Position numbers and translations under genes: made by a program
Notes under the pieces: generated by a model
Told to the model about the DNA's origin: nothing
Database searches by the model: none
Seen by the model: the letters and a program-made list of their open reading frames with translations, nothing else
Shown: positions 53,886 through 64,000 of the stretch, one piece after another
Position numbering within the stretch: the first letter of the stretch is position 1
Layout of the letters: every line of letters begins with the position of its first letter
Sequence record: PZ172995.1
Source of the DNA: a phage
Strand: one strand, 5' to 3'
DNA length: 64,000 bases

Positions 53886-54151
53886 CAGAGAATGAAGATA
53901 CTTTCTATGTAGAAGGGTACTTACTACTACCACGACCAAAAGAAACTTATATGCGGGTTGATTTCTCACCAACCATTATGGATAACGTGATGTGCCATAT
54001 CTTTATGCAAGGTGTCACAGCACAGCTTAAGCATGTTGGTAAAGAGTGCAAAATAAAGGTTGACACTCATCCAGAAATCAAAGAGAATCACTACACATGG
54101 TTCTTACCAGACTCTAAAGAAATCTTAGCAGTTCTTAAAACGAGGAAATGA
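53882..54151 (+). CDS. hypothetical protein
   Basis: 89 aa, coupled starts. Confidence 0.4.
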   Translation: MTENEDTFYVEGYLLLPRPKETYMRVDFSPTIMDNVMCHIFMQGVTAQLKHVGKECKIKVDTHPEIKENHYTWFLPDSKEILAVLKTRK

Positions 54152-54462
54152 TTATGAAATTCCAGCCAACAAATCGTGGATTTTCTTATGCAGAATTTAA
54201 AGATGCTAAAGGGGAAATTTGTACTTTACAAGAGAGTTCATCATATGAACCATGTATCTGGTTAGGTGCTAAAGAGGTCTCTGTTCAGTACCTAGATGGT
54301 GGCTGGAAAACACTTGATATCCCAGCATTAGTAGGCAAAGATTTTGTAGGTAACCAAAGAATGAAACTCAACCAAGAACAGGTGAAAGAGTTATTACCAT
54401 ACCTTCAGTACTTTGCTGAAAATGGTGAATTACCAACAGAGGAACTTACAAATGCAGATTAA
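54148..54462 (+). CDS. hypothetical protein
   Basis: 104 aa, coupled starts. Confidence 0.4.
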   Translation: MIMKFQPTNRGFSYAEFKDAKGEICTLQESSSYEPCIWLGAKEVSVQYLDGGWKTLDIPALVGKDFVGNQRMKLNQEQVKELLPYLQYFAENGELPTEELTNAD

Positions 54463-54778
54463 TGGAAGAGACTTTGTAGCCGTTTACTACGAGAAAGATA
54501 AAGAAGTTGGCGTAGCACAAGTATCTTATGGTAATGGTAAGTGGTTGTATGGGACAATTGCAGTAGTCGGAACAAGAAGTGATACAAAAACTTTTAAAGA
54601 TTGTGTTGACCTTCTTGAAGAATCCATCCACAATCATTGGTGTCTGATATGGATGACTGACAACGAAGTGATAGAACGCTTCAAAAAGATTGGTATCAAC
54701 ATTGATAGCATTGAGCATGTTGACTTGTATGAGCTAACTGAGAAGGTAAACTATGAAAGTAATACTAGCCAGAGATAA
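54452..54778 (+). CDS. hypothetical protein
   Basis: Start set at internal Met MQINGRDF... of ORF 54413..54778. Confidence 0.4.
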   Translation: MQINGRDFVAVYYEKDKEVGVAQVSYGNGKWLYGTIAVVGTRSDTKTFKDCVDLLEESIHNHWCLIWMTDNEVIERFKKIGINIDSIEHVDLYELTEKVNYESNTSQR

Positions 54779-54986
54779 AAAGACCCGCAAGATTGTACGT
54801 TCAGCAGTATTCATAGGGAGAGATGAAGTCGTCCCGTTTGCAGGGGAAGATGTACTAACTTATAAGAAGGGTTTAAAACGTAAATTCAGTGACCGTTTAC
54901 GCGGATTCATCTCTGAACCATTAGAAGATTTCAAAAGTCGCTGTGGCGAAGGCATCATCATTCAAGAGGCAATTATTCATGGCTGA
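54753..54986 (+). CDS. hypothetical small protein
   Basis: 77 aa ORF. Confidence 0.35.
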   Translation: MKVILARDKKTRKIVRSAVFIGRDEVVPFAGEDVLTYKKGLKRKFSDRLRGFISEPLEDFKSRCGEGIIIQEAIIHG

Positions 54987-55179
54987 TTTCTGCAAAGATT
55001 GTGCTATCGAAATGTTTGGACGTGATACAGGTGACTTAAAAGGTCTTATCACTGAAGATGACTTTAAAGCTGGCTATGCAATGCCAGTAATCTGTGAAGG
55101 TTGTGGATGTATCTGGGTAGACCACGAAGGACAACGTGTAAAACCTTCAGAAGATAAAGAATCTTGGGAGAGATGCTAA
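54979..55179 (+). CDS. small Cys-rich protein
   Basis: Start set at MADFCKDC...; CxxC ... CEGCGC pattern; directly upstream of macrodomain gene. Confidence 0.35.
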   Translation: MADFCKDCAIEMFGRDTGDLKGLITEDDFKAGYAMPVICEGCGCIWVDHEGQRVKPSEDKESWERC

Positions 55180-55965
55180 ATGGGTATTGTAAAAATCATC
55201 AATGGGGATATCTTCTCCGCATTTGATAAAGGTAAGTTTGATATTATTGGTCACGGTTGCAACTGTATGAATTTAATGGGCGCAGGTATCGCTGACAAGA
55301 TTTCTAAACTTTACCCAAAAGCATATGAGACTGATACAGAAGTCTATCTGTATGCAGGTGGTATAGGTCACAAACCATGTGAAAATTTACTAGGCAATTT
55401 CTCTGTAGCACGTTTAGAACAAGGCCGTATAGCTAACCTTTACACTCAGCTTAAGACTGGTAAAGATGCCCGATACAGTGCTTTAGAGTCATCTTTGAAA
55501 CAACTTAACAGATACTGTGAAGTCAATCAGTTGAAGAAAGTTGGGTTACCTATGATTGGTGCAGGTATCGGTGGACTAGACTCTCAAGCCGTCACAGTCA
55601 TCATTAATCAGGTGATGAAGAGTGTAGATGTGTATCTGTATGTCTATGAAGGAGAGATGTACCACAAGTTACGCTCAGGTTGGAAGAACTACTGTGAACC
55701 AGAATACTTTGCTGGTGTAGTAGTGTTCACTAATGATGTAGTTACCCTCTTCAGACGAAGAAAAGGCAAGATACATCAAAGTAACCCTCCGGTTGAAAAG
55801 ATGTCTCTAAGTAACGCTCTAGTTACCCACCTGTCGAAGAGCAATCACAGAATTGCAGTAACATTTGGCAGTGATGCAGATACATATATCTATGCAAGAA
55901 CTGATGAGGATGTTGAGGAAATTTTCTCTTCACCGGAAGTAACCTTCTTAGACGCAAAGAACTAA
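55180..55965 (+). CDS. macrodomain protein (TARG1/DarG-like ADP-ribose binding/hydrolase fold)
   Basis: 261 aa; N-terminal IINGDIF...DIIGHGCNCMNLMGAGIA and later GLPMIGAGIGGLD match TARG1-type macrodomain motifs. Confidence 0.6.
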   Translation: MGIVKIINGDIFSAFDKGKFDIIGHGCNCMNLMGAGIADKISKLYPKAYETDTEVYLYAGGIGHKPCENLLGNFSVARLEQGRIANLYTQLKTGKDARYSALESSLKQLNRYCEVNQLKKVGLPMIGAGIGGLDSQAVTVIINQVMKSVDVYLYVYEGEMYHKLRSGWKNYCEPEYFAGVVVFTNDVVTLFRRRKGKIHQSNPPVEKMSLSNALVTHLSKSNHRIAVTFGSDADTYIYARTDEDVEEIFSSPEVTFLDAKN

Positions 55966-56034
55966 GAAACTCTGTAGAATATTCACAATAGGTTAAGCCT
56001 TTCTTATCTGGTAAATTTTTCAGGTAAGGAGGGC

Positions 56035-56234
56035 TTTTTCATTTCAGGATTGTGCAGGTAGAGTTCTGGACAGAAATCTGTAGAGAAAATTTTGAACTCC
56101 AAAGAGAAAATTCATTTTCAAACTGTGCAGGTAATCTCCAAAGAGCTTTTTCATTTTCAAAACGTGCAGACCCCGCTCAGGTCGGGCAAGAAAAATCATT
56201 TTAGAATTGTGCAGGTAGGTGGGTGCAGGTGGGG
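56035..56234. repeat. cluster of four to five direct repeats (~25-bp unit TTTTCATTTTCAAA-yTGTGCAGGTA)
   Basis: Copies at ~56035-56060, 56111-56133, 56146-56170, 56193-56217, partial 56218-56234, in a 500-bp gene-free gap. Confidence 0.65.
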
Positions 56235-56471
56235 ATGTCGCCATTTCTCACAAGGCTACCACATCTGAAAAGAAAAGTCAACAGAAAAATTTGTAGCGGA
56301 TTGAAAAATAATTCTTGATTGTAGTTCTGTTTTGTGGTAGTCGCGTGCACCCGTTTCATTACAATTTTTGCAAAAAATATTTTTAAAATTCCTATTGACT
56401 CTTTGAGTATGGTTATCTAATATTTGCATCAGACGGGCAATCAAGCCCACTTCCTAAACTGGAGAATCAAA

Positions 56472-56678
56472 ATGCTTTACAGTCGTGAATTGATGGTTAC
56501 AACTAACGTTAACACAAAGGTAAAACGTTTTTATATGCAAGTGTGCGGCGCATGGCGTAGAATATCAGAAGCTGACTATTGCAACTATGTAGAGACGGCT
56601 ATTAATTCTAATTGCTACCTTACAATAAACACTAAGAAGTTTACAAGACAGACAGCAATTTACTACTACGATAAATAA
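56472..56678 (+). CDS. small early protein
   Basis: Start set at MLYSRE... after RBS CTGGAGAATCAAAATG (ORF-track frame 56424..56678). Confidence 0.45.
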   Translation: MLYSRELMVTTNVNTKVKRFYMQVCGAWRRISEADYCNYVETAINSNCYLTINTKKFTRQTAIYYYDK

Positions 56679-56679
56679 A

Positions 56680-56769
56680 AAAGTACTTTACAAGGGGCTT
56701 AAAAGCTGATATCTTAAGCCCCAGATAAAGAGCTTTACTAAATTAACCCTTAAACTAGGAGATTCAAAA
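56680..56769 (+). promoter_or_regulatory. early intergenic cassette type 1 (stem-loop + AGATAAAGAGCTTTAC + SD)
   Basis: AGTACTTTACA, hairpin GGGGCTTAAAAGCTGATATCTTAAGCCCC (56694-56722), AGATAAAGAGCTTTAC, CCTTAAACTAGGAGATTCAAAAATG. Confidence 0.6.
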
Positions 56770-57150
56770 ATGGCTTATCGTGCACCGAAATTCATCAACA
56801 AAGACAACTTCCGCAACGCACTGGAGAAGTCACTTGGTGAAAATTTTAAAGGTAACATTATCGTTGTTCACGTATTCAATTTTAAGTATGATGTAAACGG
56901 GAATAGAATCAACCATTACACAGCAACCATGTTAGATGGTACGCTATCAAGTGAAAAAGCTGTACTGAATGCACTTGCAGGACGTGGTAAAAACCTGATA
57001 AGATGCGATAAGAGACGTTATCAGGGTGGCGCATATGGTTATGATGATGCTGTTTATCATCTTGAAAATATGGGCTATTCAGTGGAAAAAGCTGGAGTGT
57101 CTCAAATAATCGGCAGTGACGGCTATGTGACAATTTTCAAAATTAACTAA
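56770..57150 (+). CDS. small early protein
   Basis: 126 aa, preceded by conserved AGGAGATTCAAAAATG. Confidence 0.5.
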   Translation: MAYRAPKFINKDNFRNALEKSLGENFKGNIIVVHVFNFKYDVNGNRINHYTATMLDGTLSSEKAVLNALAGRGKNLIRCDKRRYQGGAYGYDDAVYHLENMGYSVEKAGVSQIIGSDGYVTIFKIN

Positions 57151-57151
57151 T

Positions 57152-57238
57152 AAAGTACTTTACAGGGGGCTTATAGTTCGATAAAGTAAGCCCCAGATAA
57201 AGAGCTTTACCACTAAATCCTAAATTGGAGATTCAAAA
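57152..57238 (+). promoter_or_regulatory. early intergenic cassette type 1
   Basis: Hairpin GGGGGCTTAT...GTAAGCCCC (~57166-57194) + AGATAAAGAGCTTTACCACTAAATCCTAAATTGGAGATTCAAAAATG. Confidence 0.6.
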
Positions 57239-57529
57239 ATGGCTATTATTAAAAACGTTGTAATTCCTGCAAAAACTCGTGATGACGCTCGCATCATGGC
57301 GAAAAAGTTAGGCGGGAAAGTGGTTGACAACGGAAAACAAACTGCTGTAAGGTGGAACGTGAAGGCGGATAAACAAATGAATTTAAAAAATTCACCAATA
57401 AACCTTTTTACATGTGTAAACACTATCGGGAAAACGAATGTATACACTAAAAAGGCATATATCAGACGCATCGCCATGACGTCACCTATTCGGACAATGA
57501 GAAGTCATGCAAAGCTGAAAATTAAGTAA
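57239..57529 (+). CDS. small early protein
   Basis: 96 aa after conserved SD context. Confidence 0.5.
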   Translation: MAIIKNVVIPAKTRDDARIMAKKLGGKVVDNGKQTAVRWNVKADKQMNLKNSPINLFTCVNTIGKTNVYTKKAYIRRIAMTSPIRTMRSHAKLKIK

Positions 57530-57530
57530 T

Positions 57531-57619
57531 AGAGTACTTTACAGGGGGCTTAAAAGCTGATATCTTAAGCCCCAGATAAAGAGCTTTACCACTCAATCCT
57601 TAAACTAGGAGATTCAAAA
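57531..57619 (+). promoter_or_regulatory. early intergenic cassette type 1
   Basis: Hairpin GGGGGCTTAAAAGCTGATATCTTAAGCCCC (57545-57573), near-identical to copy at 56694. Confidence 0.6.
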
Positions 57620-58132
57620 ATGAAAACTGTAGACGCTACCTTTGAAGTTGTAAAAGAAAAATTTTCCATCATTTACGAAGCTGTCAATTGCTACGAAGCA
57701 AGCCATAATCTTGATAATTGGAAGTTTACAGATGACCATCAAGGCGGTGTGACTATTAAAAACCCCAACTGTCAGCGTAATGGATTTAAATATGCAATTC
57801 CTTTACATTACAGCCTTAAACAGCTTTCAATTGACTATGCAAAACAAGGCCGGGAAAATCCATCGAAAGAGGCTTACATCAGCTTACAGAAAGAACTAGA
57901 AAGAGATTTAGAGGCTTCAGAATATAACATCGCCGCGAAAGTTGTAGATGCAAACGGTAGCACGGTTTTAGAGAGTTTTTATATTGGTTATGCTTTCGAT
58001 TGGTGCTACAGTGACGGCGATGATTTAGATGACAGACTAAAAGAGGAAGTGAACAACGCAGACGCAGAATCTGAAGTATTAGAACGCTTGGAAGCATTAA
58101 AAGATTCAGTGATGAATATCTTTAAGAACTAA
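57620..58132 (+). CDS. small early acidic protein
   Basis: 170 aa, D/E-rich C-terminal half. Confidence 0.5.
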   Translation: MKTVDATFEVVKEKFSIIYEAVNCYEASHNLDNWKFTDDHQGGVTIKNPNCQRNGFKYAIPLHYSLKQLSIDYAKQGRENPSKEAYISLQKELERDLEASEYNIAAKVVDANGSTVLESFYIGYAFDWCYSDGDDLDDRLKEEVNNADAESEVLERLEALKDSVMNIFKN

Positions 58133-58133
58133 A

Positions 58134-58223
58134 TAGACCTCTTTACACGGGGCTAACAAGCGGATATGATAGCCCCAGATAAAGAGATTTATCAAATTAA
58201 CCCTTAAACTAGGAGATTCAAAA
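58134..58223 (+). promoter_or_regulatory. early intergenic cassette type 1 (variant)
   Basis: Hairpin GGGGCTAACAAGCGGATATGATAGCCCC (~58149-58176) + AGATAAAGAGATTTATC + CCTTAAACTAGGAGATTCAAAAATG. Confidence 0.55.
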
Positions 58224-58520
58224 ATGAAATTATCAAATAAAGTTAGGGAAAACCTTAGCAAATTACTCAACAAAATTGATTTTATAGAGACATCAAGGAA
58301 TAGTCATGATGTTATGGAATGGTTACACGGCAAAATAAAAGGCCGTCGTGTAGTGATTTGCTTATGGAATAGTTGCAGGGAGTATAAAAAGCCTGTATTG
58401 CAAATTAATGTTTATGATGATACTTTTAAAAGTCCTGTAAAGTCTAAAAGCGATTTATTAGAATCCTATGAGATAACTGTAAATGGCAAAGTATCACGTA
58501 AAGAGGAAACACCATGTTAA
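58224..58520 (+). CDS. small early protein
   Basis: 98 aa after conserved SD context. Confidence 0.5.
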   Translation: MKLSNKVRENLSKLLNKIDFIETSRNSHDVMEWLHGKIKGRRVVICLWNSCREYKKPVLQINVYDDTFKSPVKSKSDLLESYEITVNGKVSRKEETPC

Positions 58521-58846
58521 TGACTGGTATCACTGCAATCATTGCCATTTTCGCGCTATATAAGGCATATAAAGCCTATAATCTAGCAAATAAGGCAATC
58601 ACACAGCAAGTTAGCAATAACCTTGTAGAGAGCTTTCTAGGGCGTTTAAGTGATGAGCAAATAAAGCGGCTAGAGATGAGCTTCAGATATAAAGCGAAAA
58701 CCTATCAGATAAGTGACATCTTCAAAGATGATTTCCAGTTAGTTGATGATTATAATTCTCTGATAAATGCTTTAAACATCAGTGACTTGAAAGACTATCA
58801 CGCTGTAATTGTTCAAGAATTGAGCAAACGAAAACAAAGTGTTTGA
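58514..58846 (+). CDS. small early membrane protein
   Basis: 110 aa; N-terminal hydrophobic segment (MLMTGITAIIAIFALY); stop overlaps TTGACA of next cassette. Confidence 0.45.
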   Translation: MLMTGITAIIAIFALYKAYKAYNLANKAITQQVSNNLVESFLGRLSDEQIKRLEMSFRYKAKTYQISDIFKDDFQLVDDYNSLINALNISDLKDYHAVIVQELSKRKQSV

Positions 58847-58937
58847 CACTGATTTTTAGATAGGTTAAATTACACATCAACGGGGAGGGAATGACCTTCC
58901 CCACTAAATAAAGTCCTTAAACTAGGAGATTCTAAAA
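58843..58937 (+). promoter_or_regulatory. early intergenic cassette type 2 (TTGACA-N17-TAAATT promoter + 5' stem-loop + SD)
   Basis: TTGACA 58843-58848, TAAATT 58866-58871, hairpin GGGGAGGGAATGACCTTCCCC (~58881-58902), SD AGGAGATTCTAAAAATG. Confidence 0.6.
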
Positions 58938-59096
58938 ATGTTTTGTGCAGGTGATAAAGTTGTCTGGAATGATATAGATGACGGTTTATGTACGAAAGTT
59001 GTTGTTATCTTAGAAATTGATTATATCACTGGTGTTGCAACTGTAGCAGATAATGATATAATCTTTGATGTCTTAATTAGTGAACTGTCAAAATAA
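58938..59096 (+). CDS. small early protein (52 aa), not in supplied ORF track
   Basis: ATG after conserved cassette SD; translation MFCAGDKVVWNDIDDGLCTK... Confidence 0.4.
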   Translation: MFCAGDKVVWNDIDDGLCTKVVVILEIDYITGVATVADNDIIFDVLISELSK

Positions 59097-59121
59097 AGTC
59101 CTTAAACTAGGAGATTCAAAA

Positions 59122-59394
59122 ATGTACACTACTAACAACGGTCGCACTTTAAATGTAACCCTACGCCACTATGTGAACGGTGTAATGCACTTCGAGGATT
59201 TACAAGCTGAACAACATATATTGGATTGGCAACTTGCAGGACTCCAAAAAACTGCTACCGGATACGGGAAAAAGATTCCAACTAGCTGGAAAGTATACTA
59301 CGAAGGCCGTTTGCGTAGAATTTATCAAGATGTATGCGGCAATAGCGCATCAAGTTACATCATAGTAAAAGGCAAAAAGCTGCATTTAGCATAA
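59122..59394 (+). CDS. small early protein
   Basis: Start set at MYTTNNGRT... after AGGAGATTCAAAAATG (ORF-track frame 59080..59394 begins upstream with GTG). Confidence 0.45.
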   Translation: MYTTNNGRTLNVTLRHYVNGVMHFEDLQAEQHILDWQLAGLQKTATGYGKKIPTSWKVYYEGRLRRIYQDVCGNSASSYIIVKGKKLHLA

Positions 59395-59395
59395 A

Positions 59396-59479
59396 GTACT
59401 TTACAAGGGGCTTATAAATCTGTACAGTAAGCCCCAGATAAAGAGCTTTACCACTAAATCCTAAATTGGAGATTCAAAA
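59396..59479 (+). promoter_or_regulatory. early intergenic cassette type 1
   Basis: Hairpin GGGGCTTATAAATCTGTACAGTAAGCCCC (59407-59435) + AGATAAAGAGCTTTACCACTAAATCCTAAATTGGAGATTCAAAAATG. Confidence 0.6.
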
Positions 59480-59884
59480 ATGGCTATTAATAATCGTGAG
59501 TTATCTATCTTAAAAGCACGTTTGACCGTTAACCGGATTAATGTTATCACATCAGCAGCACCGGATGAAACACTGCAAAACATTATTGGGAAGATTCAAA
59601 GTGTTATCTTAGACGTTGAAAGCGTAAAAAACTCATTGGCTGACGTTGCAGCCGGTATCACGCTAGACGGTGCACAACATGAGATGGCTGACATGTTAGG
59701 CAAATCAAAGGTAATGAATAAAGAATTAGACTTGAAAATGTTTCGATTTGCTGTTAAAGTGTGGCTATCCGTCGAGTATGACGCTAATTTTGCAATCGCT
59801 GATTTCTTTGCCACTTGGTTACAACGTAACTTAACAAATCATGATTTCCGTGATGTCTGTGATGCAATCTACGCAGAACTTTAA
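59480..59884 (+). CDS. small early protein
   Basis: 134 aa after conserved SD context. Confidence 0.5.
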   Translation: MAINNRELSILKARLTVNRINVITSAAPDETLQNIIGKIQSVILDVESVKNSLADVAAGITLDGAQHEMADMLGKSKVMNKELDLKMFRFAVKVWLSVEYDANFAIADFFATWLQRNLTNHDFRDVCDAIYAEL

Positions 59885-59891
59885 AAAGATG

Positions 59892-59984
59892 TTGACACTG
59901 ATTTTTAGATAGATTAAATTACTCATCAACGGGGAGGCAATAACCTCCCTACTAAATAAAGTCCTTAAACTAGGAGATTCTAAA
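59892..59984 (+). promoter_or_regulatory. early intergenic cassette type 2
   Basis: TTGACA 59892-59897, TAAATT 59915-59920, hairpin GGGGAGGCAATAACCTCCC (~59931-59949); near-identical to cassette at 58843. Confidence 0.6.
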
Positions 59985-60182
59985 ATGGCTATTATTAACG
60001 GCTTAACCATTGAAACAACACACATCAAAGATATCAAAGTTGGTGATGTAGTCCTTTCCCACGGCGTAGAAAAAACTGTCACTGCAAAGGATATCAAAGA
60101 GGATTCTTTCATGGGTAGAACTCTCTTCGGTGATTCTTATTGCTTAGGTTATCTTGCAGTTTTAAAAGTTGTCAAAAATTAA
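59985..60182 (+). CDS. small early protein
   Basis: 65 aa after conserved SD. Confidence 0.45.
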   Translation: MAIINGLTIETTHIKDIKVGDVVLSHGVEKTVTAKDIKEDSFMGRTLFGDSYCLGYLAVLKVVKN

Positions 60183-60183
60183 G

Positions 60184-60274
60184 TAATAAAGTACTTTACA
60201 AGGGGCTTAAAAAGTTGGTATCTTAAGCCCCAGATAAAGAGCTTTACACAGTCCTTAAACTAGGAGATTCAAAA
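60184..60274 (+). promoter_or_regulatory. early intergenic cassette type 1
   Basis: Hairpin GGGGCTTAAAAAGTTGGTATCTTAAGCCCC (60203-60231) + AGATAAAGAGCTTTACAC + CCTTAAACTAGGAGATTCAAAAATG. Confidence 0.6.
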
Positions 60275-60817
60275 ATGAAATGCTTTCACGGTACTACTCA
60301 AGAAAACTTCACCAACCTGATTAATAACGGTGATAAACCATCAGGCGCATGGAATTGTTCGGATATGGATGGCAATTTTTACGTTTATCCAGAAAATAAA
60401 ATCTATGGCGACGATGAGGAAGAAATAATCTCTGAAGGCATTCAACAAGCTTTAGGCAATGCCACTATAACGGCAGCTTTTCAGATGAAAACTCAAAACA
60501 TTGTTATCTTGGAACTTGATATTCCAGAGGATGAGTTGAATGATGATTATTCTTGTGATAATATGTCGAGCGTGGCAAGTTTTACAGAGTATTTCGATAT
60601 AAGCTGGATTAAAAAGGTTTACATCACTGAATTTAATGCTATGTTTTCGCCTTTTTGTCTCCCTTCACTGGATAACCCAAATTTAAACTATATTGACGAG
60701 TCTCTGGAACTTCTCGCTAAAAGTGTTCAACAATCAGACAGTATTCAGGTTTTTTGTGACATCATGGATACACTAACAGGAAACATCATAGAAAGTGATT
60801 TGAAGAGCTTTTTATAA
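60275..60817 (+). CDS. early protein
   Basis: 180 aa, acidic; no motif recognised. Confidence 0.5.
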   Translation: MKCFHGTTQENFTNLINNGDKPSGAWNCSDMDGNFYVYPENKIYGDDEEEIISEGIQQALGNATITAAFQMKTQNIVILELDIPEDELNDDYSCDNMSSVASFTEYFDISWIKKVYITEFNAMFSPFCLPSLDNPNLNYIDESLELLAKSVQQSDSIQVFCDIMDTLTGNIIESDLKSFL

Positions 60818-60883
60818 TAACCTATACAATCACCTTATAAATACTGATTAGCCCCTCACAGGGGCTTTTAGGAGGCCTAAATC

Positions 60884-61117
60884 ATGCTTACAACCATTTA
60901 TCTCATCCTTTCTATTTGTAATGGTCATTCATGCGATTTTAAAGGGCTTGAGGAGTTTACAGGGAGTAAAGAAAATGCCGTTCAAGTGTGCCAGATAGCA
61001 AGGCAAGACTATCCCGCCAGTGATGATATACAATGTTACTTTAAGACAGAAGATAATGACGGCGTTTATTTTGATAGCGTAGATGGTCAATATGAAATTA
61101 TCATTGAAAAAGACTAG
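60884..61117 (+). CDS. small early protein with N-terminal hydrophobic segment
   Basis: 77 aa; MLTTIYLILSICNGHSC... signal-like N-terminus. Confidence 0.4.
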   Translation: MLTTIYLILSICNGHSCDFKGLEEFTGSKENAVQVCQIARQDYPASDDIQCYFKTEDNDGVYFDSVDGQYEIIIEKD

Positions 61118-61129
61118 ACAAGCCTGATA

Positions 61130-61206
61130 AAAGTCTGTAAATTGTCAATCAACGGGAGGTAATAACCTCCCCACTAAGTAAAGTCCTTAAACTAGGAGAT
61201 TCAAAA
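61130..61206 (+). promoter_or_regulatory. early intergenic cassette type 2 (variant lacking clear TTGACA)
   Basis: GTCTGTAAATTGTCAATCAACGGGAGGTAATAACCTCCCCACTAAGTAAAGTCCTTAAACTAGGAGATTCAAAAATG; hairpin ~61154-61172. Confidence 0.55.
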
Positions 61207-61548
61207 ATGGCTTATGTAACCGTAATTACCGATAAAGATGGTTCATCTTGGTCAACTCAAGTAAGTGATAAGATGTCACCTATGCAGTGCCTAAAATACT
61301 TTGAGCAATGGAACAAAGGTGAAGAAACAAGCCCCTTCCAAGTGATGCAGATTATCCATACAGATAACGAAGGGAATAAAACTGTTTTGAATAGTGAGTA
61401 CTATGCAACCAGATTCGAAACGAGAAGTAAAGCAATGAAACTCTTACGTGAATCCGGTTACTCTCATATTGCCTCACTAATCTGGGATGACCTGCTAAAA
61501 AGTCAGCGTATCAGCTATGTAAAACCTGAAAAAACATTCATCAGTTAA
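61207..61548 (+). CDS. small early protein
   Basis: 113 aa after conserved SD. Confidence 0.5.
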   Translation: MAYVTVITDKDGSSWSTQVSDKMSPMQCLKYFEQWNKGEETSPFQVMQIIHTDNEGNKTVLNSEYYATRFETRSKAMKLLRESGYSHIASLIWDDLLKSQRISYVKPEKTFIS

Positions 61549-61699
61549 TCAATAACTTACAAAAAACTTTTAAAAAAGTGTTGACAATCCCTCTTGACAT
61601 TGGTAACTTTGTTCGAGGGGGTTTATCTAAAAGGGATTAACTTAAAAGATTCTTTATAGATAAACTTAAAAAATTGCTTGCAATCAGCTATCAAAACAA

Positions 61700-61769
61700 G
61701 TAAATTACTAATCAACGGGAGGTAATGACCTCCCCACTAAGTAAAGTCCTTAAACTAGGAGATTCAAAA
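61700..61769 (+). promoter_or_regulatory. early intergenic cassette type 2
   Basis: TAAATTACTAATCAACGGGAGGTAATGACCTCCCC (hairpin ~61717-61735) + ACTAAGTAAAGTCCTTAAACTAGGAGATTCAAAAATG; TTGACA boxes at ~61572-61600 upstream. Confidence 0.55.
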
Positions 61770-62300
61770 ATGAACAAGTTCAAAGCTATCAATTACATTC
61801 GTTCGAGTAGCATCATGTCAAAACCTGTTAAAGATACCTATGAATTTCGTTGCAATGGGGTGCATTTTGCAACCATCACCAAATCAGAAAACGGAGCTTA
61901 TTACATCCATCGCCGTAATGTTGCAACCGTTGTTGTCTCTCATTTTATGCAAGCTGTCGCGGAACTTCTCCCGATGTTTTTAGGGCTTTACTTGGATGAG
62001 TGTAAAAACGTTCACAATCACGTTAAAAACCTTTTAAACAGCTATAAAATGGCTTATGAACGTTCTATCAAGTCATTGAACAAGTTTTACAACGCACCTG
62101 AAAATACTGTGTCAATAGCCTATGGTGTAAGCGGTGAAATGGTAAACTTATCCAATGTGGAAGAAATCAAGCTGCATGATTTACGCCCTAACGGTTACGC
62201 TAAAACCATCGGTGAAGGTTTAACTTTCAATATCAAGAACTTAGAAAAAACTTTAAAAGATATTGAAAAAGATATTGACGAGACAATCAAAAGTCTGTAA
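61770..62300 (+). CDS. early protein
   Basis: Start set at MNKFKAIN... after cassette SD (ORF-track frame 61725..62300). Confidence 0.5.
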   Translation: MNKFKAINYIRSSSIMSKPVKDTYEFRCNGVHFATITKSENGAYYIHRRNVATVVVSHFMQAVAELLPMFLGLYLDECKNVHNHVKNLLNSYKMAYERSIKSLNKFYNAPENTVSIAYGVSGEMVNLSNVEEIKLHDLRPNGYAKTIGEGLTFNIKNLEKTLKDIEKDIDETIKSL

Positions 62301-62366
62301 ATTGTCAATCAACGGGGAGGGAATGACCTTCCCCACTAAACAAAGTCCTAAACTGGAGTTATCAAG
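62301..62366 (+). promoter_or_regulatory. early intergenic cassette type 2
   Basis: GTCTGTAAATTGTCAATCAACGGGGAGGGAATGACCTTCCCC (hairpin ~62314-62334) + ACTAAACAAAGTCCTAAACTGGAGTTATCAAGATG. Confidence 0.55.
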
Positions 62367-62630
62367 ATGGAAAACGTCGAACTGACCACACTTTTACAAA
62401 TTGCAACCGACAAAGAGGATGTAGCATTATTCCACCGTATCGAAAGTGATTTGTTCAATGGTGAAATCATTAAAGAATCTTACGAAGTGGTCGGATTCAA
62501 AGATGGTAAATCATTTGGATTCTTTGACCTCGACAAAGGCAACGCTATTACAAAGTATGATGTTTTATCTTGTGAGATTCTGACAAAATACAACGAAAAA
62601 AGACTTGCAACATACGCCAACATGCAGTAA
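62367..62630 (+). CDS. small early protein
   Basis: 87 aa after cassette. Confidence 0.5.
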   Translation: MENVELTTLLQIATDKEDVALFHRIESDLFNGEIIKESYEVVGFKDGKSFGFFDLDKGNAITKYDVLSCEILTKYNEKRLATYANMQ

Positions 62631-62695
62631 ATTACTAATCAACGGGAGGGATAACCTCCCTACTAAGTAAAGTCCTTAAACTAGGAGATTCTAAA
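62631..62695 (+). promoter_or_regulatory. early intergenic cassette type 2
   Basis: TAAATTACTAATCAACGGGAGGGATAACCTCCC (hairpin ~62644-62660) + TACTAAGTAAAGTCCTTAAACTAGGAGATTCTAAAATG. Confidence 0.55.
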
Positions 62696-62944
62696 ATGGC
62701 AACTATCCGCGCAATTGTAAATTCTTATGGCTGCTACACTCTGGACGTTAAATTTGATATAGGTGGGACCGATGAGTGTTTCGAACTGGTGAAAACAGTC
62801 ATTAAACAAGTTATCCCAGACTATAACCCTACTGATGACTTCTGGAAAGATGCAGTAAAAGAGGCGTTGAACGATGAATATCATTACCATTATTGGGGTG
62901 ATTTGATTGTCTCCCTGTACTACAATAAACAAGGTTGCAACTAA
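62696..62944 (+). CDS. small early protein
   Basis: 82 aa; last ORF before ~1 kb non-coding repeat region. Confidence 0.5.
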   Translation: MATIRAIVNSYGCYTLDVKFDIGGTDECFELVKTVIKQVIPDYNPTDDFWKDAVKEALNDEYHYHYWGDLIVSLYYNKQGCN

Positions 62945-62982
62945 TCGACGCAACGGGGCTAAATAGCCCCAGATACCTTTAT

Positions 62983-63006
62983 AGCCCCTTAAATGGGGCT
63001 TTTTTA
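62983..63006 (+). terminator. rho-independent terminator
   Basis: AGCCCC-TTAAAT-GGGGCT followed by TTTTTT; preceded by second hairpin GGGGCTAAATAGCCCC at ~62955-62970. Confidence 0.65.
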
Positions 63007-63049
63007 CGTCTTAACAAATCCCTATACAACCCTTTTCCTTTCCTTTCCA

Positions 63050-63700
63050 GAATCTATCCCATACCTTAAAAGCAATAACTCTATAGCTTACTCTATAGCC
63101 CCTTATCAAATCAACTTAAATATAAGCCCATAACCCGAAAGGGAAGGGCAACCATTTAAACGCTCTATAAAGCCCTATAACAGCCTTATCAACCTAACTT
63201 AAGGGATTGCATTACCTCACCCTTAAAAGCCCTTTATAAAGCTTCCCAGAGCCTTAAAAGAATCTTATAAGGGTGTAAGCTTTATTATCTCGTTAGCTAT
63301 CTTGTGAATGGTTAAACAACCCCTTGATAGTAACTGAAAAGTATGTTATAGGGGCTATAAAGTTACTTTGAAGTAGTTTAAAAGTTACTTAAAAGTTACG
63401 TAAATGCTAGCCCCCTTAACATTTTCTTAACAATTTCTTAACAATCCCTACATAGTTATGCTTTTAAGGTACTTGTTAGCAACTTGTTAGCCCCTTGTTA
63501 AATCTCTGTTAAAACCACGTAAAAGCCTTGTAAGAGCCTTTGACATAGCCTATAAAGCCTCTGTAAAGCCCTATAAATAGCTTTCTGTATAGTTGGGGTG
63601 TAATTACTAGGAAGAGACTAAAAAGAGCTTATAAGGAGCTATAAAGGGCTTTTAAGAGGGCTATTTAAAGGGTCACTAAGAGAGAAAGGGAACGATAAGA
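63050..63700. repeat. dispersed short direct repeats of CTATAAAG(C/G)C family in gene-free region
   Basis: About ten copies or variants (CTCTATAAAGCCCTATAA, CTTTATAAAGC, GGCTATAAAGTTAC, CCTATAAAGCCTCTGTAAAGCCCTATAAATAGC, GAGCTATAAAGGGC ...). Confidence 0.6.
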
Positions 63701-63995
63701 AAAGAGATAGTGACCATGTTAATAGCTTGTTAAAAAGATTAAACACTTGTTAGAAACTTGTTAATTATCTTAACAAAATAACTCTTTAAAATTAACTTGT
63801 TAGCTCTTGTTAGTCATCTGTTAAGACACTGTAAAGCCTATGTATCAACTGTTAAGAAACTGTTAAGTTCTTGTTAAAACTGTTAAGAATCTGTTAAGAC
63901 CTCTGAAGAGATGTTAAGAGGTTGTAAGAACTGTTAAGAGATTGTTAATGATATTTTAAAATTCTGCAAAGGGGATGTTACAGGGCTGTTAAGGG
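63420..63995. repeat. iteron-like array of CTTGTTA(A/G) / CTGTTAAG repeats, ~11-13 bp periodicity
   Basis: Two inverted copies (TTCTTAACAA x2, ~63428-63450), four copies ~63471-63510, and at least 15 copies from ~63725 to 63995 (e.g. CAACTGTTAAGAAACTGTTAAGTTCTTGTTAAAACTGTTAAGAATCTGTTAAGAC). Confidence 0.7.
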
Positions 63996-64000
63996 CTACC

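What the first reader, a model, noticed from the sequence alone, without database searches (positions are those of the whole stretch)
58843..62695. Early intergenic cassette type 2: TTGACA-N17-TAAATT promoter with GGGAGG/CCTCCC 5' stem-loop, six copies
Seen in sequence: copies upstream of ATGs 58938, 59985, 61207, 61770, 62367 and 62696 share TAAATT(A/G)C..AATCAACGGG(G)AGG-loop-CCTCCC(C)ACTAA(G/A)TAAAGTCCTTAAACTAGGAGATTC(A/T)AAAATG. Two copies (58843, 59892) carry a perfect TTGACA exactly 17 nt upstream of TAAATT. Inference: a family of host-RNAP early promoters whose transcripts begin with a conserved leader hairpin, which could stabilise the RNA or bind a regulator.
Basis: seen in the sequence. 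Interest (0 to 1): 0.55.

Follow-up and report, generated by a model that had tools for sequence, protein, structure and literature searches.

The report
Early promoter–hairpin gene cassettes
The six repeats are real: they are copies of a compact "promoter + hairpin + ribosome-binding site" unit placed in front of small early genes of a Felix O1-like phage, and related phages gain and lose those genes by recombining at the units, much as described for T4-like phages.

Summary
The window comes from a Felixounavirus (Felix O1-like myovirus). All six copies, not just two, carry a -35-like hexamer exactly 17 bp upstream of TAAATT. A seventh, diverged copy lies at 56395-56471. Each unit reads: A-tract, -35, N17, -10, N4, ATCAAC, a G-run/C-run hairpin, an AU-rich linker, then a shared SD module and ATG.

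Across 15 genomes from three Ounavirinae genera I found 91 copies (168-174 distinct sequences once IMG/VR contigs were added):
- The -35 to -10 spacing (17) and the -10 to hairpin spacing (10 nt in 153/168) are fixed.
- Hairpin length (12-24 nt) and hairpin-to-SD distance (11-32 nt) vary.
- Stems change compensatorily (GGGAGG/CCTCCC, GGGC/GCCC, GGGA/TCCC).

Single-gene indels between phages are bounded by the cassettes, with crossover points inside them.

Best reading: sigma-70 early promoters whose transcripts probably start 2-3 nt before a 5'-terminal stem-loop, repeated as recombination-prone modules. This is the architecture of the PeSLs of T4-like phages, here in a different subfamily. 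No transcription start site, RNA half-life or termination data exist, so the hairpin's function is inferred. Novelty is a new member of a known kind; interest is moderate to low.

The parts
56395..56471 (+). Diverged seventh cassette, the first promoter of the array, upstream of the 68-aa gene at 56472
   Evidence: Layout: -35 TTGACT 56395-56400; 17-bp spacer; -10 TAATAT 56418-56423; ATCAGAC 56428-56434; hairpin GGGC-AATCAA-GCCC 56435-56448; SD CTGGAG. Read from sequence. Promoter scan. Covariance-model hit at 56427-56456 (22.1 bits). The same variant sits before the homologous gene in BPS15Q2, mistaenkt and DR094.
58843..58937 (+). Type-2 cassette 1, upstream of ATG 58938 (52-aa ORF)
   Evidence: Layout: -35 TTGACA 58843-58848, which contains the TGA stop of the upstream gene; -10 TAAATT 58866-58871; ATCAAC 58876-58881; hairpin GGGGAGGG-AATGA-CCTTCCCC 58882-58902; ribosome-binding-site module 58915-58932..
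59084..59121 (+). Promoter-less copy of the 3' module (AAATAAAGTCCTTAAACTAGGAGATTCAAAA), upstream of ATG 59122
   Evidence: Together with the same module at 58905-58937 it forms a direct repeat flanking the 52-aa ORF at 58938-59096. That ORF is absent from most relatives, where the same promoter and hairpin directly precede the 59122 gene.
59892..59984 (+). Type-2 cassette 2, upstream of ATG 59985
   Evidence: Layout: -35 TTGACA 59892-59897; -10 TAAATT 59915-59920; ATCAAC 59925-59930; hairpin GGGGAGG-CAATAA-CCTCCCT 59931-59950; ribosome-binding-site module 59963-59980..
61115..61206 (+). Type-2 cassette 3, upstream of ATG 61207
   Evidence: Layout: -35 TAGACA 61115-61120, whose TAG is the stop codon of the upstream gene; -10 TAAATT 61138-61143; ATCAAC 61148-61153; hairpin GGGAGGT-AATA-ACCTCCC 61154-61171; ribosome-binding-site module 61185-61202..
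61678..61769 (+). Type-2 cassette 4, upstream of ATG 61770
   Evidence: Layout: -35 TTGCAA 61678-61683; -10 TAAATT 61701-61706; ATCAAC 61711-61716; hairpin 61717-61734; ribosome-binding-site module 61748-61765..
62275..62366 (+). Type-2 cassette 5, upstream of ATG 62367 (variant ribosome-binding site)
   Evidence: Layout: -35 TTGACG 62275-62280, inside the upstream coding sequence; -10 TAAATT 62298-62303, whose TAA is the upstream stop codon; ATCAAC 62308-62313; hairpin 62314-62334; SD CTGGAG..
62605..62695 (+). Type-2 cassette 6, upstream of ATG 62696
   Evidence: Layout: -35 TTGCAA 62605-62610; -10 TAAATT 62628-62633, whose TAA is the upstream stop codon; ATCAAC 62638-62643; hairpin GGGAGG-GATAA-CCTCCC 62644-62660; ribosome-binding-site module 62674-62691..
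55995..56036 (+). Intrinsic terminator bounding the cassette array on the left (context)
   Evidence: Stem of 17 pairs followed by a T-run. It equals terminator t13 in the Felix O1 paper.
62983..63000 (+). Intrinsic terminator bounding the cassette array on the right (context)
   Evidence: AGCCCCTTAAATGGGGCT followed by TTTTTT. It equals terminator t23 of Felix O1. The only other terminator-like sites the scan reports between 56036 and 62983 are two at about 59.6-59.8 kb inside the 59480-59884 ORF (59638-59653 on the - strand, 59770-59783 on the + strand); none lies at a cassette or in an intergenic gap.

Best explanation
The repeats are copies of a compact regulatory cassette of a Felix O1-like phage (subfamily Ounavirinae). 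Each cassette gives one small early gene of unknown function its own expression signals.

**Shown by sequence**
- The layout is: A-rich tract, -35-like hexamer, 17-bp spacer, -10 hexamer (TAAATT), N4, invariant ATCAAC, G-run/C-run hairpin, AU-rich linker, shared Shine-Dalgarno module, ATG.
- The layout is conserved across three genera.
- Gene indels between phages are bounded by the cassettes.

**Inferred**
1. Host sigma-70 RNA polymerase initiates early in infection at the A residues of ATCAAC, 7-9 nt after the -10. Each primary transcript would then begin with 2-3 unpaired nucleotides followed directly by the stem-loop.
2. The 5'-terminal stem-loop most likely protects the short monocistronic early mRNA from 5'-end-dependent decay (RppH/RNase E entry). 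In read-through transcripts from the promoter upstream, the same hairpin sits just after the preceding stop codon. There it could protect or delimit that message's 3' end.
3. The roughly 70-100-bp cassette is repeated 7 times within 6.3 kb (16 times counting the sister 'type 1' cassette and shared ribosome-binding-site modules). It therefore serves as portable homology for recombination and gene conversion. Genes are inserted, deleted and swapped at cassette boundaries, and every rearranged gene still has a promoter and ribosome-binding site.

This matches the PeSL ('promoter-early stem-loop') design described for T4-like phages.
For: **Identity of the phage.** 253-257 phage records match, nearly all Felixounavirus or other Ounavirinae of enterobacteria.

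**Promoter**
- The -35 sits at exactly 17 bp in 6/6 window copies (7/7 with the 56395 copy) and in 90/91 copies in 15 genomes.
- The hexamers are kept while the five spacer classes differ, and while they overlap different coding 3' ends and stop codons.
- There is an A-tract upstream of the -35.
- The -10 varies only within TAnnnT across genera.
- One copy is annotated as a promoter in KR014248.
- Felix O1 ORF21 and ORF22 are maximal at 5 min.

**Hairpin**
- It is present in 91/91 copies, starting 0-1 nt after ATCA(G)AC. There are 29 distinct sequences, 48 in the larger set.
- Native 5'/3' arm pairs are more stable than swapped arms: -10.3 versus -8.1 kcal/mol, with 0/2000 permutations reaching the native value.
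- 84.6% of cells are paired; the covariation score is 0.180 against 0.133 in shuffles (0/500 shuffles reach it).
- G.U wobbles number 46 cells against 2 U.G. The stem is therefore better on the sense strand, which points to an RNA-level (+ strand) role.

**Positional link to the promoter.** The -10 to hairpin distance is 10 nt in 153/168, 11 in 14 and 12 in 1. By contrast, hairpin length spans 12-24 nt and hairpin-to-SD distance spans 11-32 nt.

**Recombination**
- The gene-order map shows single-gene presence/absence bounded by cassettes. The same gene sits behind type 1 in one phage and type 2 in another.
- Three phages that lack the 62367 gene have three different crossover points, all inside the cassette: in TAAATT, in ATCAACGGG, and between the hairpin and the ribosome-binding site.
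- The 58938 ORF is flanked by a duplicated ribosome-binding-site module. Felix O1's three-gene gap is flanked by type-2 cassettes.
- Paralogous cassettes are identical within a genome, including private variants, yet differ between genomes.
- The region is hyperplastic: only 13/257 records cover at least 80% of it, against 158/263 and 233/260 for two control regions of equal length.
- All downstream genes are of unknown function.

**Precedent.** PeSL promoter and stem-loop activities, and recombination at PeSLs, were shown experimentally (PMC2839356; PMC4122927).
Against: - No transcription-start, half-life or reporter data exist for any Ounavirinae cassette. Literature searches found none.
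- Felix O1 ORF19 and ORF23, also behind type-2 cassettes, peaked at 25 min rather than 5 min in end-point RT-PCR.
- Formal covariation is modest. Only 2 of 8 pairs show double changes, and sliding the 3' arm by -1 gives a nearly equal score (0.156), because G-run/C-run arms can slip.
- The copies are related and undergo gene conversion, so conservation alone does not prove function.
- Some hairpins in Suspvirus and Mooglevirus are weak (-3.6 to -7.5 kcal/mol).
- In the sister type-1 cassette the hairpin overlaps the spacer and -10, so it cannot lie in its own transcript. A single common role for both hairpins would therefore favour an effect on upstream read-through RNA or on DNA, rather than 5'-end protection.
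Confidence: 0.6

Rival explanations
1. The hairpin is mainly a transcription attenuator or terminator (an insulator). It would stop or dampen RNA polymerase arriving from the promoter upstream, so that each gene is driven chiefly by its own promoter. This is the role assigned to the stem-loop of PeSLs.
For: - In phage RB49/phi1 a PeSL stem-loop placed between a strong promoter and lacZ reduced expression about as much as the rrnB T1 terminator (PMC2839356).
- The hairpin lies 20-45 nt after the upstream stop codon in every copy.
- The sister type-1 hairpin can only exist in read-through RNA.
- There are about 16 co-directional promoters between 56036 and 62983, and the terminator scan finds no terminator-like site at any cassette or in any intergenic gap there.
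Against: - No U-tract follows the stem (ACUAAAUAAAG), and the terminator scan finds nothing at any cassette.
- The stems are short, at 4-8 bp.
- The fixed 10-nt distance from the -10, against variable distances elsewhere, is not needed for termination of upstream transcripts.
- The invariant ATCAAC is left unexplained.
Confidence: 0.2
2. ATCAAC plus the GGG...CCC hairpin is an operator, on DNA or on the nascent RNA, for a phage or host protein. The protein would switch the whole set of early genes off or on together (temporal control), or would nick or recombine DNA at these sites.
For: - ATCA(G)AC and the outer GGG/CCC pairs are invariant in 91 copies from three genera, while neighbouring bases vary.
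- The Felix O1 authors state that temporal regulation is unexplained and that no RNA-polymerase modifiers are recognisable.
- The PeSL authors speculated about a GGGG...CCCC-binding recombination protein.
Against: - Loop sequence and length vary freely (AAUGA, CAAUAA, GAUAA, AAGCAA, AAGAUAAA), and stem length varies from 4 to 8 bp. This is unlike known hairpin-specific binders.
- No candidate protein was identified; the neighbouring genes have no Pfam match and only PHROG families of unknown function.
- ATCAAC conservation is equally explained by start-site or initial-transcribed-sequence requirements.
Confidence: 0.1
3. The repeats are recombination-spread, gene-converted DNA. Their conservation reflects concerted evolution rather than selection on a promoter or an RNA structure.
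For: - Paralogous cassettes are identical within a genome, including private variants.
- The commonest hairpin precedes nine different genes.
- The Felix O1 paper listed them simply as direct repeats.
Against: - The -35 hexamers are kept at 17 bp in five unrelated spacer and coding contexts, with P about 0.047 per context by chance.
- The -10 drifts only within TAnnnT.
- Stems change compensatorily, and native arms outperform swapped arms.
- Indels are tolerated only outside the -35/-10/hairpin spacings.
Confidence: 0.07
4. The hairpins are rho-independent terminators on the minus strand, as annotated in the GenBank record of phage KhF2.
For: KT184314 carries 'Rho-independent terminator' features on the opposite strand at the homologous hairpins.
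Against: - No minus-strand genes exist in this 6.5-kb array.
- On the minus strand the frequent G.U pairs become A.C mismatches.
- The downstream minus-strand sequence GTTGATTAGTAATTTA is not a T-run, and the scan here calls no terminator at these sites.
Confidence: 0.03

Closest known systems
PeSLs (promoter-early stem-loops) of T4-like myoviruses (Arbiol et al. 2010, PMC2839356; Comeau et al. 2014, PMC4122927)
   Same: - Roughly 100-bp intergenic units made of an upstream stop codon in an AT-rich tract, a sigma-70-type -35/N17/-10, a G-run/C-run stem-loop with G-T pairs, then SD and ATG.
- Clustered in hyperplastic regions in front of genes of unknown function.
- Indels and replacements between close relatives have crossovers inside the units.
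- One of the five PeSL subclasses has the stem-loop downstream of the -10, as here. The neighbouring type-1 cassette matches the commonest subclass, with the stem overlapping the -10.
   Different: - The host lineage is Ounavirinae (Felix O1-like), not T4-like, and there is no sequence similarity to PeSLs.
- The stem here is at a strictly fixed position 10 nt after the -10, preceded by an invariant ATCAAC, and so is predicted to be transcribed as the 5' end of the mRNA.
- A long shared ribosome-binding-site module is part of the repeat.
- Promoter, terminator and mini-circle activities have not been tested here.
5'-terminal stabilising stem-loops of E. coli mRNAs, such as the ompA 5' UTR (Emory, Bouvet and Belasco, 1992; from my own knowledge, not retrieved here)
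   Same: A stem-loop predicted within 2-3 nt of the 5' end of the transcript, followed by an AU-rich single-stranded linker and the ribosome-binding site.
   Different: The 5' end is not mapped and no half-life data exist. The stems are shorter and G/C-rich, and the element is repeated in front of many genes.
Intrinsic (rho-independent) terminators
   Same: A short G+C-rich hairpin located just after a stop codon.
   Different: There is no U-tract and the consensus scan does not flag the sites. True terminators with T-runs bracket the array at 55995-56036 and 62983-63000.
Integron gene-cassette arrays and phage 'morons' (analogy drawn by the PeSL authors)
   Same: Small accessory genes arranged as exchangeable units, each bounded by a repeated sequence.
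   Different: No integrase or attC-type site is present. Each unit carries its own promoter, and exchange is presumably by general homologous recombination over about 70-100 bp of homology.

Membership tests
PeSL (promoter-early stem-loop) cassettes | Sigma-70-like -35 and -10 boxes about 17 bp apart, with an AT-rich tract upstream of the -35 | tested here: met
   6/6 window copies (7/7 with the 56395 copy) and 90/91 copies in 15 genomes have at least 4/6 matches to TTGACA at exactly 17 bp from a TAnnnT hexamer. An A-tract lies upstream.
PeSL (promoter-early stem-loop) cassettes | An adjacent stable stem-loop, typically G-run/loop/C-run | tested here: met
   A hairpin is present in 91/91 copies. 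There are 29-48 distinct sequences, with dG from -3.6 to -15 kcal/mol.
PeSL (promoter-early stem-loop) cassettes | [quoted passage not shown] | tested here: met
   The upstream stop codons lie within the -35 or the -10 in four of the six copies: TGA in TTGACA at 58844, TAG in TAGACA at 61115, and the TAA of TAAATT at 62298 and 62628. For the other two copies (-35 at 59892 and 61678) the upstream stop lies outside the unit, about 8 and about 130 bp upstream of the -35 (ORF ends 59884 and 61548). The shared SD module ends at the ATG.
PeSL (promoter-early stem-loop) cassettes | Concentrated in hyperplastic regions, in front of genes of unknown function | tested here: met
   Only 13/257 relatives cover at least 80% of 56600-63000, against 158/263 and 233/260 for control regions. 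None of the ten downstream proteins has a Pfam match, and their PHROG families are of unknown function.
PeSL (promoter-early stem-loop) cassettes | Indels or replacements between related phages with crossovers inside the elements | tested here: met
   See the gene-order map. There are three distinct intra-cassette crossovers for the 62367-gene indel. The 58938 ORF is flanked by duplicated modules, and Felix O1's three-gene gap is flanked by type-2 cassettes.
PeSL (promoter-early stem-loop) cassettes | Demonstrated strong promoter activity, terminator activity of the stem-loop, and mini-circle formation | not testable with these tools
   This needs reporter assays and inverse PCR on infected cells. 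No such data were found for Ounavirinae.
PeSL (promoter-early stem-loop) cassettes | Described in T4-like phages (Tevenvirinae and relatives) | tested here: not met
   The window and all 248-257 matching records are Ounavirinae-like phages: Felixounavirus, Mooglevirus and Suspvirus. This is therefore an analogue in another lineage, not the same sequence family.
Intrinsic terminator | A G+C-rich hairpin immediately followed by a U/T-run | tested here: not met
   No cassette hairpin is reported by the terminator scan. The tail is ACTAAATAAAG.
5'-terminal stabilising stem-loop | A stem beginning within a few nucleotides of the transcript's 5' end | not testable with these tools
   This is only predicted. 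The stem starts 10-11 nt after the -10 in 167/168 copies, which would leave 2-3 unpaired nucleotides if initiation is at A+7 to A+9. Start-site mapping is required.
Any curated RNA family (Rfam 15) | A match to a covariance model | tested here: not met
   There are no matches with E-value up to 1 in 54000-64000 on either strand.

The most novel reading that the evidence does not exclude
The invariant ATCAAC-GGG...CCC element may not be just a start site plus a passive hairpin. It could be the recognition site of a dedicated phage-encoded factor: a structure-specific nuclease or recombinase, or an RNA-binding regulator. That would make the terminal early region of Felix O1-like phages an integron-like array in which promoter-equipped genes are actively captured, excised and co-regulated.
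Probability: 0.08. Interest if true: 0.75.

Novelty: new member of a known kind. Interest (0 to 1): 0.35.

Why it matters
- **Transcription of Felix O1-like phages.** The 2010 Felix O1 genome paper listed these sequences only as 'direct repeats'. It stated that the way transcription proceeds and is timed was unknown. Reading them as promoter/hairpin/ribosome-binding-site cassettes gives a concrete, testable map of early transcription for a widely used group of Salmonella and E. coli biocontrol and typing phages.
- **Generality of the PeSL strategy.** It shows that the PeSL way of organising and shuffling accessory genes is not confined to T4-like phages.
- **Natural variation for experiments.** The collection holds 29-48 stem variants at a fixed position after the -10. 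These could be used to test how 5'-terminal hairpins affect mRNA stability.
- **Practical points.** The cassettes are compact, strong, self-contained expression units. Their near-identical ribosome-binding-site modules mean that antisense or dCas13 guides aimed at one early gene's ribosome-binding site may hit several.

Tried and rejected
- **Rfam.** A scan of 54-64 kb at E-value up to 1 found nothing.
- **Literature.** Searches for Felix O1 or Ounavirinae promoter, start-site or transcriptome work found no start-site data. They returned only the 2010 genome paper, with repeats listed and crude RT-PCR timing.
- **Alignment of hairpins.** Plain MAFFT alignment mis-registers the 3' arm. I re-aligned with a covariance model and added an alignment-free arm-swap test.
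- **Mini-ORF in the loop.** GGAGG-N2-3-ATG gives MTFPTK* at 58891. I rejected it because ATG is present in only 3 of 6 window copies (ATA in the others), the spacing is too short, and the ATG is buried in the hairpin.
- **SD/anti-SD mimic (GGAGG paired with CCUCC).** Rejected as the conserved feature, because Mooglevirus and Suspvirus copies use GGGC/GCCC or GGGA/TCCC stems.
- **RNase III site.** The stems are only 4-8 bp, which is too short (inference).
- **Lambda-type nut/boxB.** The loops are not conserved and there is no boxA-like match (inference).
- **Minus-strand terminator (KhF2 annotation).** Rejected; see the rival explanations.
- **Spread beyond Ounavirinae.** A cassette BLAST and an IMG/VR pattern scan hit only Ounavirinae records and contigs (51-94 kb, most about 87-90 kb).
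- **Function of downstream proteins.** Pfam gave nothing and PHROGs gave only families of unknown function.

Full report
**What the window is.** BLAST of 58800-62750 against the phage collection hits 253 records. Nearly all are Felix O1-like myoviruses of Escherichia, Salmonella, Shigella and Citrobacter, at up to about 94% identity. The region corresponds to Felix O1 ORF14-23. It is an array of small co-directional genes, 52-180 aa, lying between two intrinsic terminators at 55995-56036 and 62983-63000. These are terminators t13 and t23 of the Felix O1 paper. The last 593 bases of the window (63408-64000) align end-to-end with the 618-bp direct terminal repeat annotated in phage UAB_69. The array therefore sits about 460 bp from the physical genome end.

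**Checking the observation.**
Shuffles give 0.13 expected.
- The alignment of the six copies shows invariant TTG-type -35 positions, an invariant TAAATT, ATCAACGGG, both hairpin arms, and the downstream AAAGTCC..GGAG module. The -35/-10 spacer is variable.
In fact all six have one at exactly 17 bp (TTGACA x2, TAGACA, TTGCAA x2, TTGACG). No comparable match appears at 15, 16, 18 or 19 bp. The chance of at least 4/6 matches at a fixed position is 0.047.
- In four of the six copies the stop codon of the upstream gene is embedded in the -35 or in the TAA of TAAATT.
- Each leader folds into the predicted hairpin plus a weak second hairpin (UCCU/AGGA) over the SD. Energies are -16 to -20 kcal/mol, with z-scores of about -2.4 to -2.8.
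- A covariance model of ATCAAC plus hairpin finds exactly seven hits in the 64 kb. They are the six above and a diverged copy at 56427-56456, which belongs to TTGACT-N17-TAATAT upstream of the first gene of the array.
- The 3' ribosome-binding-site module occurs ten times. It is shared with a second cassette type: TTTACA-N17-TAxxxT, with a GGGGCT..AGCCCC hairpin spanning the spacer and the -10.

**Comparative anatomy.** I fetched the homologous region from 14 relatives: 11 Felixounavirus-type phages, Mooglevirus Moogle, and the Suspvirus phages mistaenkt and SUSP1.
- There are 91 type-2 cassettes. The -35 is at 17 bp in 90 of them.
- The -10 is TAAATT in Felixounavirus, and TAAAGT, TAATAT or TAGTAT elsewhere.
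- ATCA(G)AC is invariant, and a hairpin starts 0-1 nt after it in all 91.
- There are 29 distinct hairpins, or 48 among 174 distinct cassettes once IMG/VR contigs are added.
- Stems include GGGGAGGG/CCTTCCCC, GGGAGG/CCTCCC, GGGGAG/CTCCCC, GGGGC/GCCCC, GGGC/GCCC and GGGA/TCCC. These are compensatory changes at the inner pairs, with the outer GGG/CCC fixed.
- Swapping 5' and 3' arms between variants lowers stability: native -10.3 against -8.1 kcal/mol, with 0/2000 permutations as good.
- On the model-guided alignment, 84.6% of cells pair and the covariation score exceeds all shuffles. However, only two pairs show double changes, and sliding by -1 scores nearly as well. Formal covariation support is therefore modest.
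- G.U pairs are common (46 cells) and U.G rare (2). The stem is therefore better on the sense strand, which favours an RNA-level role in + strand transcripts.
- Indels are tolerated in the hairpin (12-24 nt) and between the hairpin and the SD (11-32 nt). The -10 to hairpin distance is 10 nt in 153/168, 11 in 14 and 12 in 1.
- With sigma-70 initiation typically about 7 nt past the -10, usually at a purine (established knowledge), the start falls on the AA of ATCAAC. The transcript would then begin 2-3 nt before the stem.

**Gene shuffling at the cassettes.** A gene-order map shows that nearly every gene of the array has its own cassette: type 1, type 2 or ribosome-binding site only. Differences between phages are whole-gene indels bounded by cassettes.
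- The 52-aa ORF at 58938 is present only in the window, HMD-P10 and LTH02.
- The three genes at 59985-61117 are missing from Felix O1.
- The 62367 gene is missing from Felix O1, VpaE1 and UAB_69.
- LF82P5 and DR094 lack nine genes.
- The same gene can be behind type 1 in one phage and type 2 in another.
- For the 62367-gene indel, the single remaining cassette is a left/right chimera of the window's two flanking cassettes. Its crossover point differs in each phage: within TAAATT in Felix O1, within ATCAACGGG in UAB_69, and between the hairpin and the ribosome-binding site in VpaE1.
- The 58938 ORF is flanked by a direct repeat of the ribosome-binding-site module. Felix O1's three-gene gap is flanked by type-2 cassettes.
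- In UAB_69, HMD-P10 and JN01, two cassettes about 0.9-1.0 kb apart are identical to each other, including private variants, yet differ from the homologous pair in other phages. This indicates gene conversion.
- The region is hyperplastic. Only 13 of 257 relatives cover at least 80% of 56600-63000 in one piece, against 158/263 and 233/260 for equal-length control regions.
- The downstream proteins have no Pfam match and only PHROG families of unknown function.

**Mechanism.**
- Shown: the conserved architecture, its spacings, the structural conservation of the stem, and cassette-bounded rearrangements.
- Inferred: these are host sigma-70 early promoters. The hairpin is the 5'-terminal structure of each primary transcript, and I take its most likely job to be protection against 5'-end-dependent decay. 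It could secondarily delimit or protect the 3' end of read-through RNA from the gene upstream. The repeated 70-100-bp unit is the substrate for homologous recombination that shuffles early accessory genes while keeping each one expressible.
- My rough confidences are: promoter about 0.85; recombination module about 0.8; 5'-protection as the main role of the stem about 0.45.
- The main rival for the stem is attenuation of upstream transcription, as shown for one PeSL stem-loop. For it: the sister type-1 hairpin cannot be in its own transcript. Against it: there is no U-tract, and the fixed distance to the -10 is not needed for such a role.
- A protein operator, pure concerted evolution, and minus-strand terminators (as annotated in KhF2) are less likely, for the reasons given under the rival explanations.

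**Relation to what is known.** The design matches the PeSLs of T4-like phages feature by feature:
- an AT-rich tract with the upstream stop codon;
- -35/N17/-10;
- a G-run/C-run stem with G-T pairs, in one of several positions including just downstream of the -10;
- SD and ATG;
- clustering before genes of unknown function in hyperplastic regions;
- crossovers inside the elements.

It is not the same sequence family and lies in a different subfamily (Ounavirinae).

For Felix O1-like phages, I found only the following. The 2010 genome paper lists a 39-bp type-2 repeat and a 57-bp type-1 repeat as 'direct repeats'. It does not call them promoters, and it says temporal control is unknown. One copy is annotated as a pattern-matched promoter in AYO145A. 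KhF2 carries software-predicted minus-strand terminators on the hairpins. Felix O1 RT-PCR places ORF21 and ORF22 (type-2) at 5 min, but ORF19 and ORF23 (also type-2) at 25 min.

**Verdict.** The finding is best filed as PeSL-like early regulatory and shuffling cassettes in a new phage lineage: a new member of a known kind, of moderate to low interest (0.35). The most novel reading not excluded is an active, factor-dependent cassette system recognising ATCAAC plus the stem, with probability about 0.08.

Noticed in passing
window 63408-64000: This stretch aligns over 616 nt (87% identity) with the 618-bp direct terminal repeat annotated in Salmonella phage UAB_69. The window ends exactly at the repeat's end, so this is probably the physical genome terminus. 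The stretch has no ORF and is packed with short words: CTGTTAAG x7, CTTGTTAG x5, CTTGTTAA x4.
   Followed up: partly
window 63000-63400: About 400 bp of non-coding DNA lies between the array's terminator and the terminal repeat. It contains repeated CTATAAAG(CC)-type words at 63166, 63235, 63356, 63551 and 63640. Function is unknown.
   Followed up: no
window 56052-56230: Five GTGCAGG(T) boxes (56052, 56125, 56164, 56209, 56223) lie in the roughly 350-bp non-coding stretch between terminator 55995-56036 and the first cassette promoter at 56395. They could be regulator-binding or iteron-like sites.
   Followed up: no
window 56687-56769, 57159-57238, 57538-57619, 58142-58223, 59400-59479, 60195-60274: A sister 'type 1' cassette: TTTACA-N17-TA(T/A)xxT, with a GGGGCTTA..TAAGCCCC hairpin spanning the spacer and the -10, then CAGATAAAGAGCTTTAC and the same ribosome-binding-site module. 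It corresponds to the 57-bp direct repeat in the Felix O1 paper. Here the hairpin cannot be part of its own transcript.
   Followed up: partly
window 61583-61625: Two overlapping TTGACA boxes and a CCCTC...GAGGG inverted repeat lie in the 150-bp spacer upstream of cassette 61678. The AYO145A record annotates a promoter at the homologous place. This may be an extra promoter or an operator.
   Followed up: no
window 60818-60883: The gene at 60884 is the only one in the array without a type-1 or type-2 cassette. It is preceded by AGCCCCTCACAGGGGCT plus TTTT running into its SD (AGGAGG). This is a terminator-like hairpin with a short T-run, conserved in the relatives with a 63-66-nt gap.
   Followed up: no
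window 58891, 61725, 62323: The hairpin loop carries an ATG in three of the six copies. The one at 61725 is in frame with gene 61770, giving a listed 191-aa ORF. The ATG is not conserved (ATA in the other copies) and lies too close to GGAGG, so it is probably not used.
   Followed up: yes
L001, L004, L008, L013 and H17/H19 annotations (relatives): Several GenBank records label the small early proteins of this array 'tail sheath monomer', 'tail tube protein' or 'prohead assembly scaffold protein'. These are 65-110-aa products with no Pfam match and PHROG families of unknown function, so the labels look like propagated mis-annotations.
   Followed up: partly
L011 (phage SUSP1) and PMC11879866: A published dCas13d knock-down screen of SUSP1 targets ribosome-binding-site regions. 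The near-identical ribosome-binding-site modules of these cassettes mean that guides against one early gene may cross-hit others. I did not check this against the paper's guide tables.
   Followed up: no
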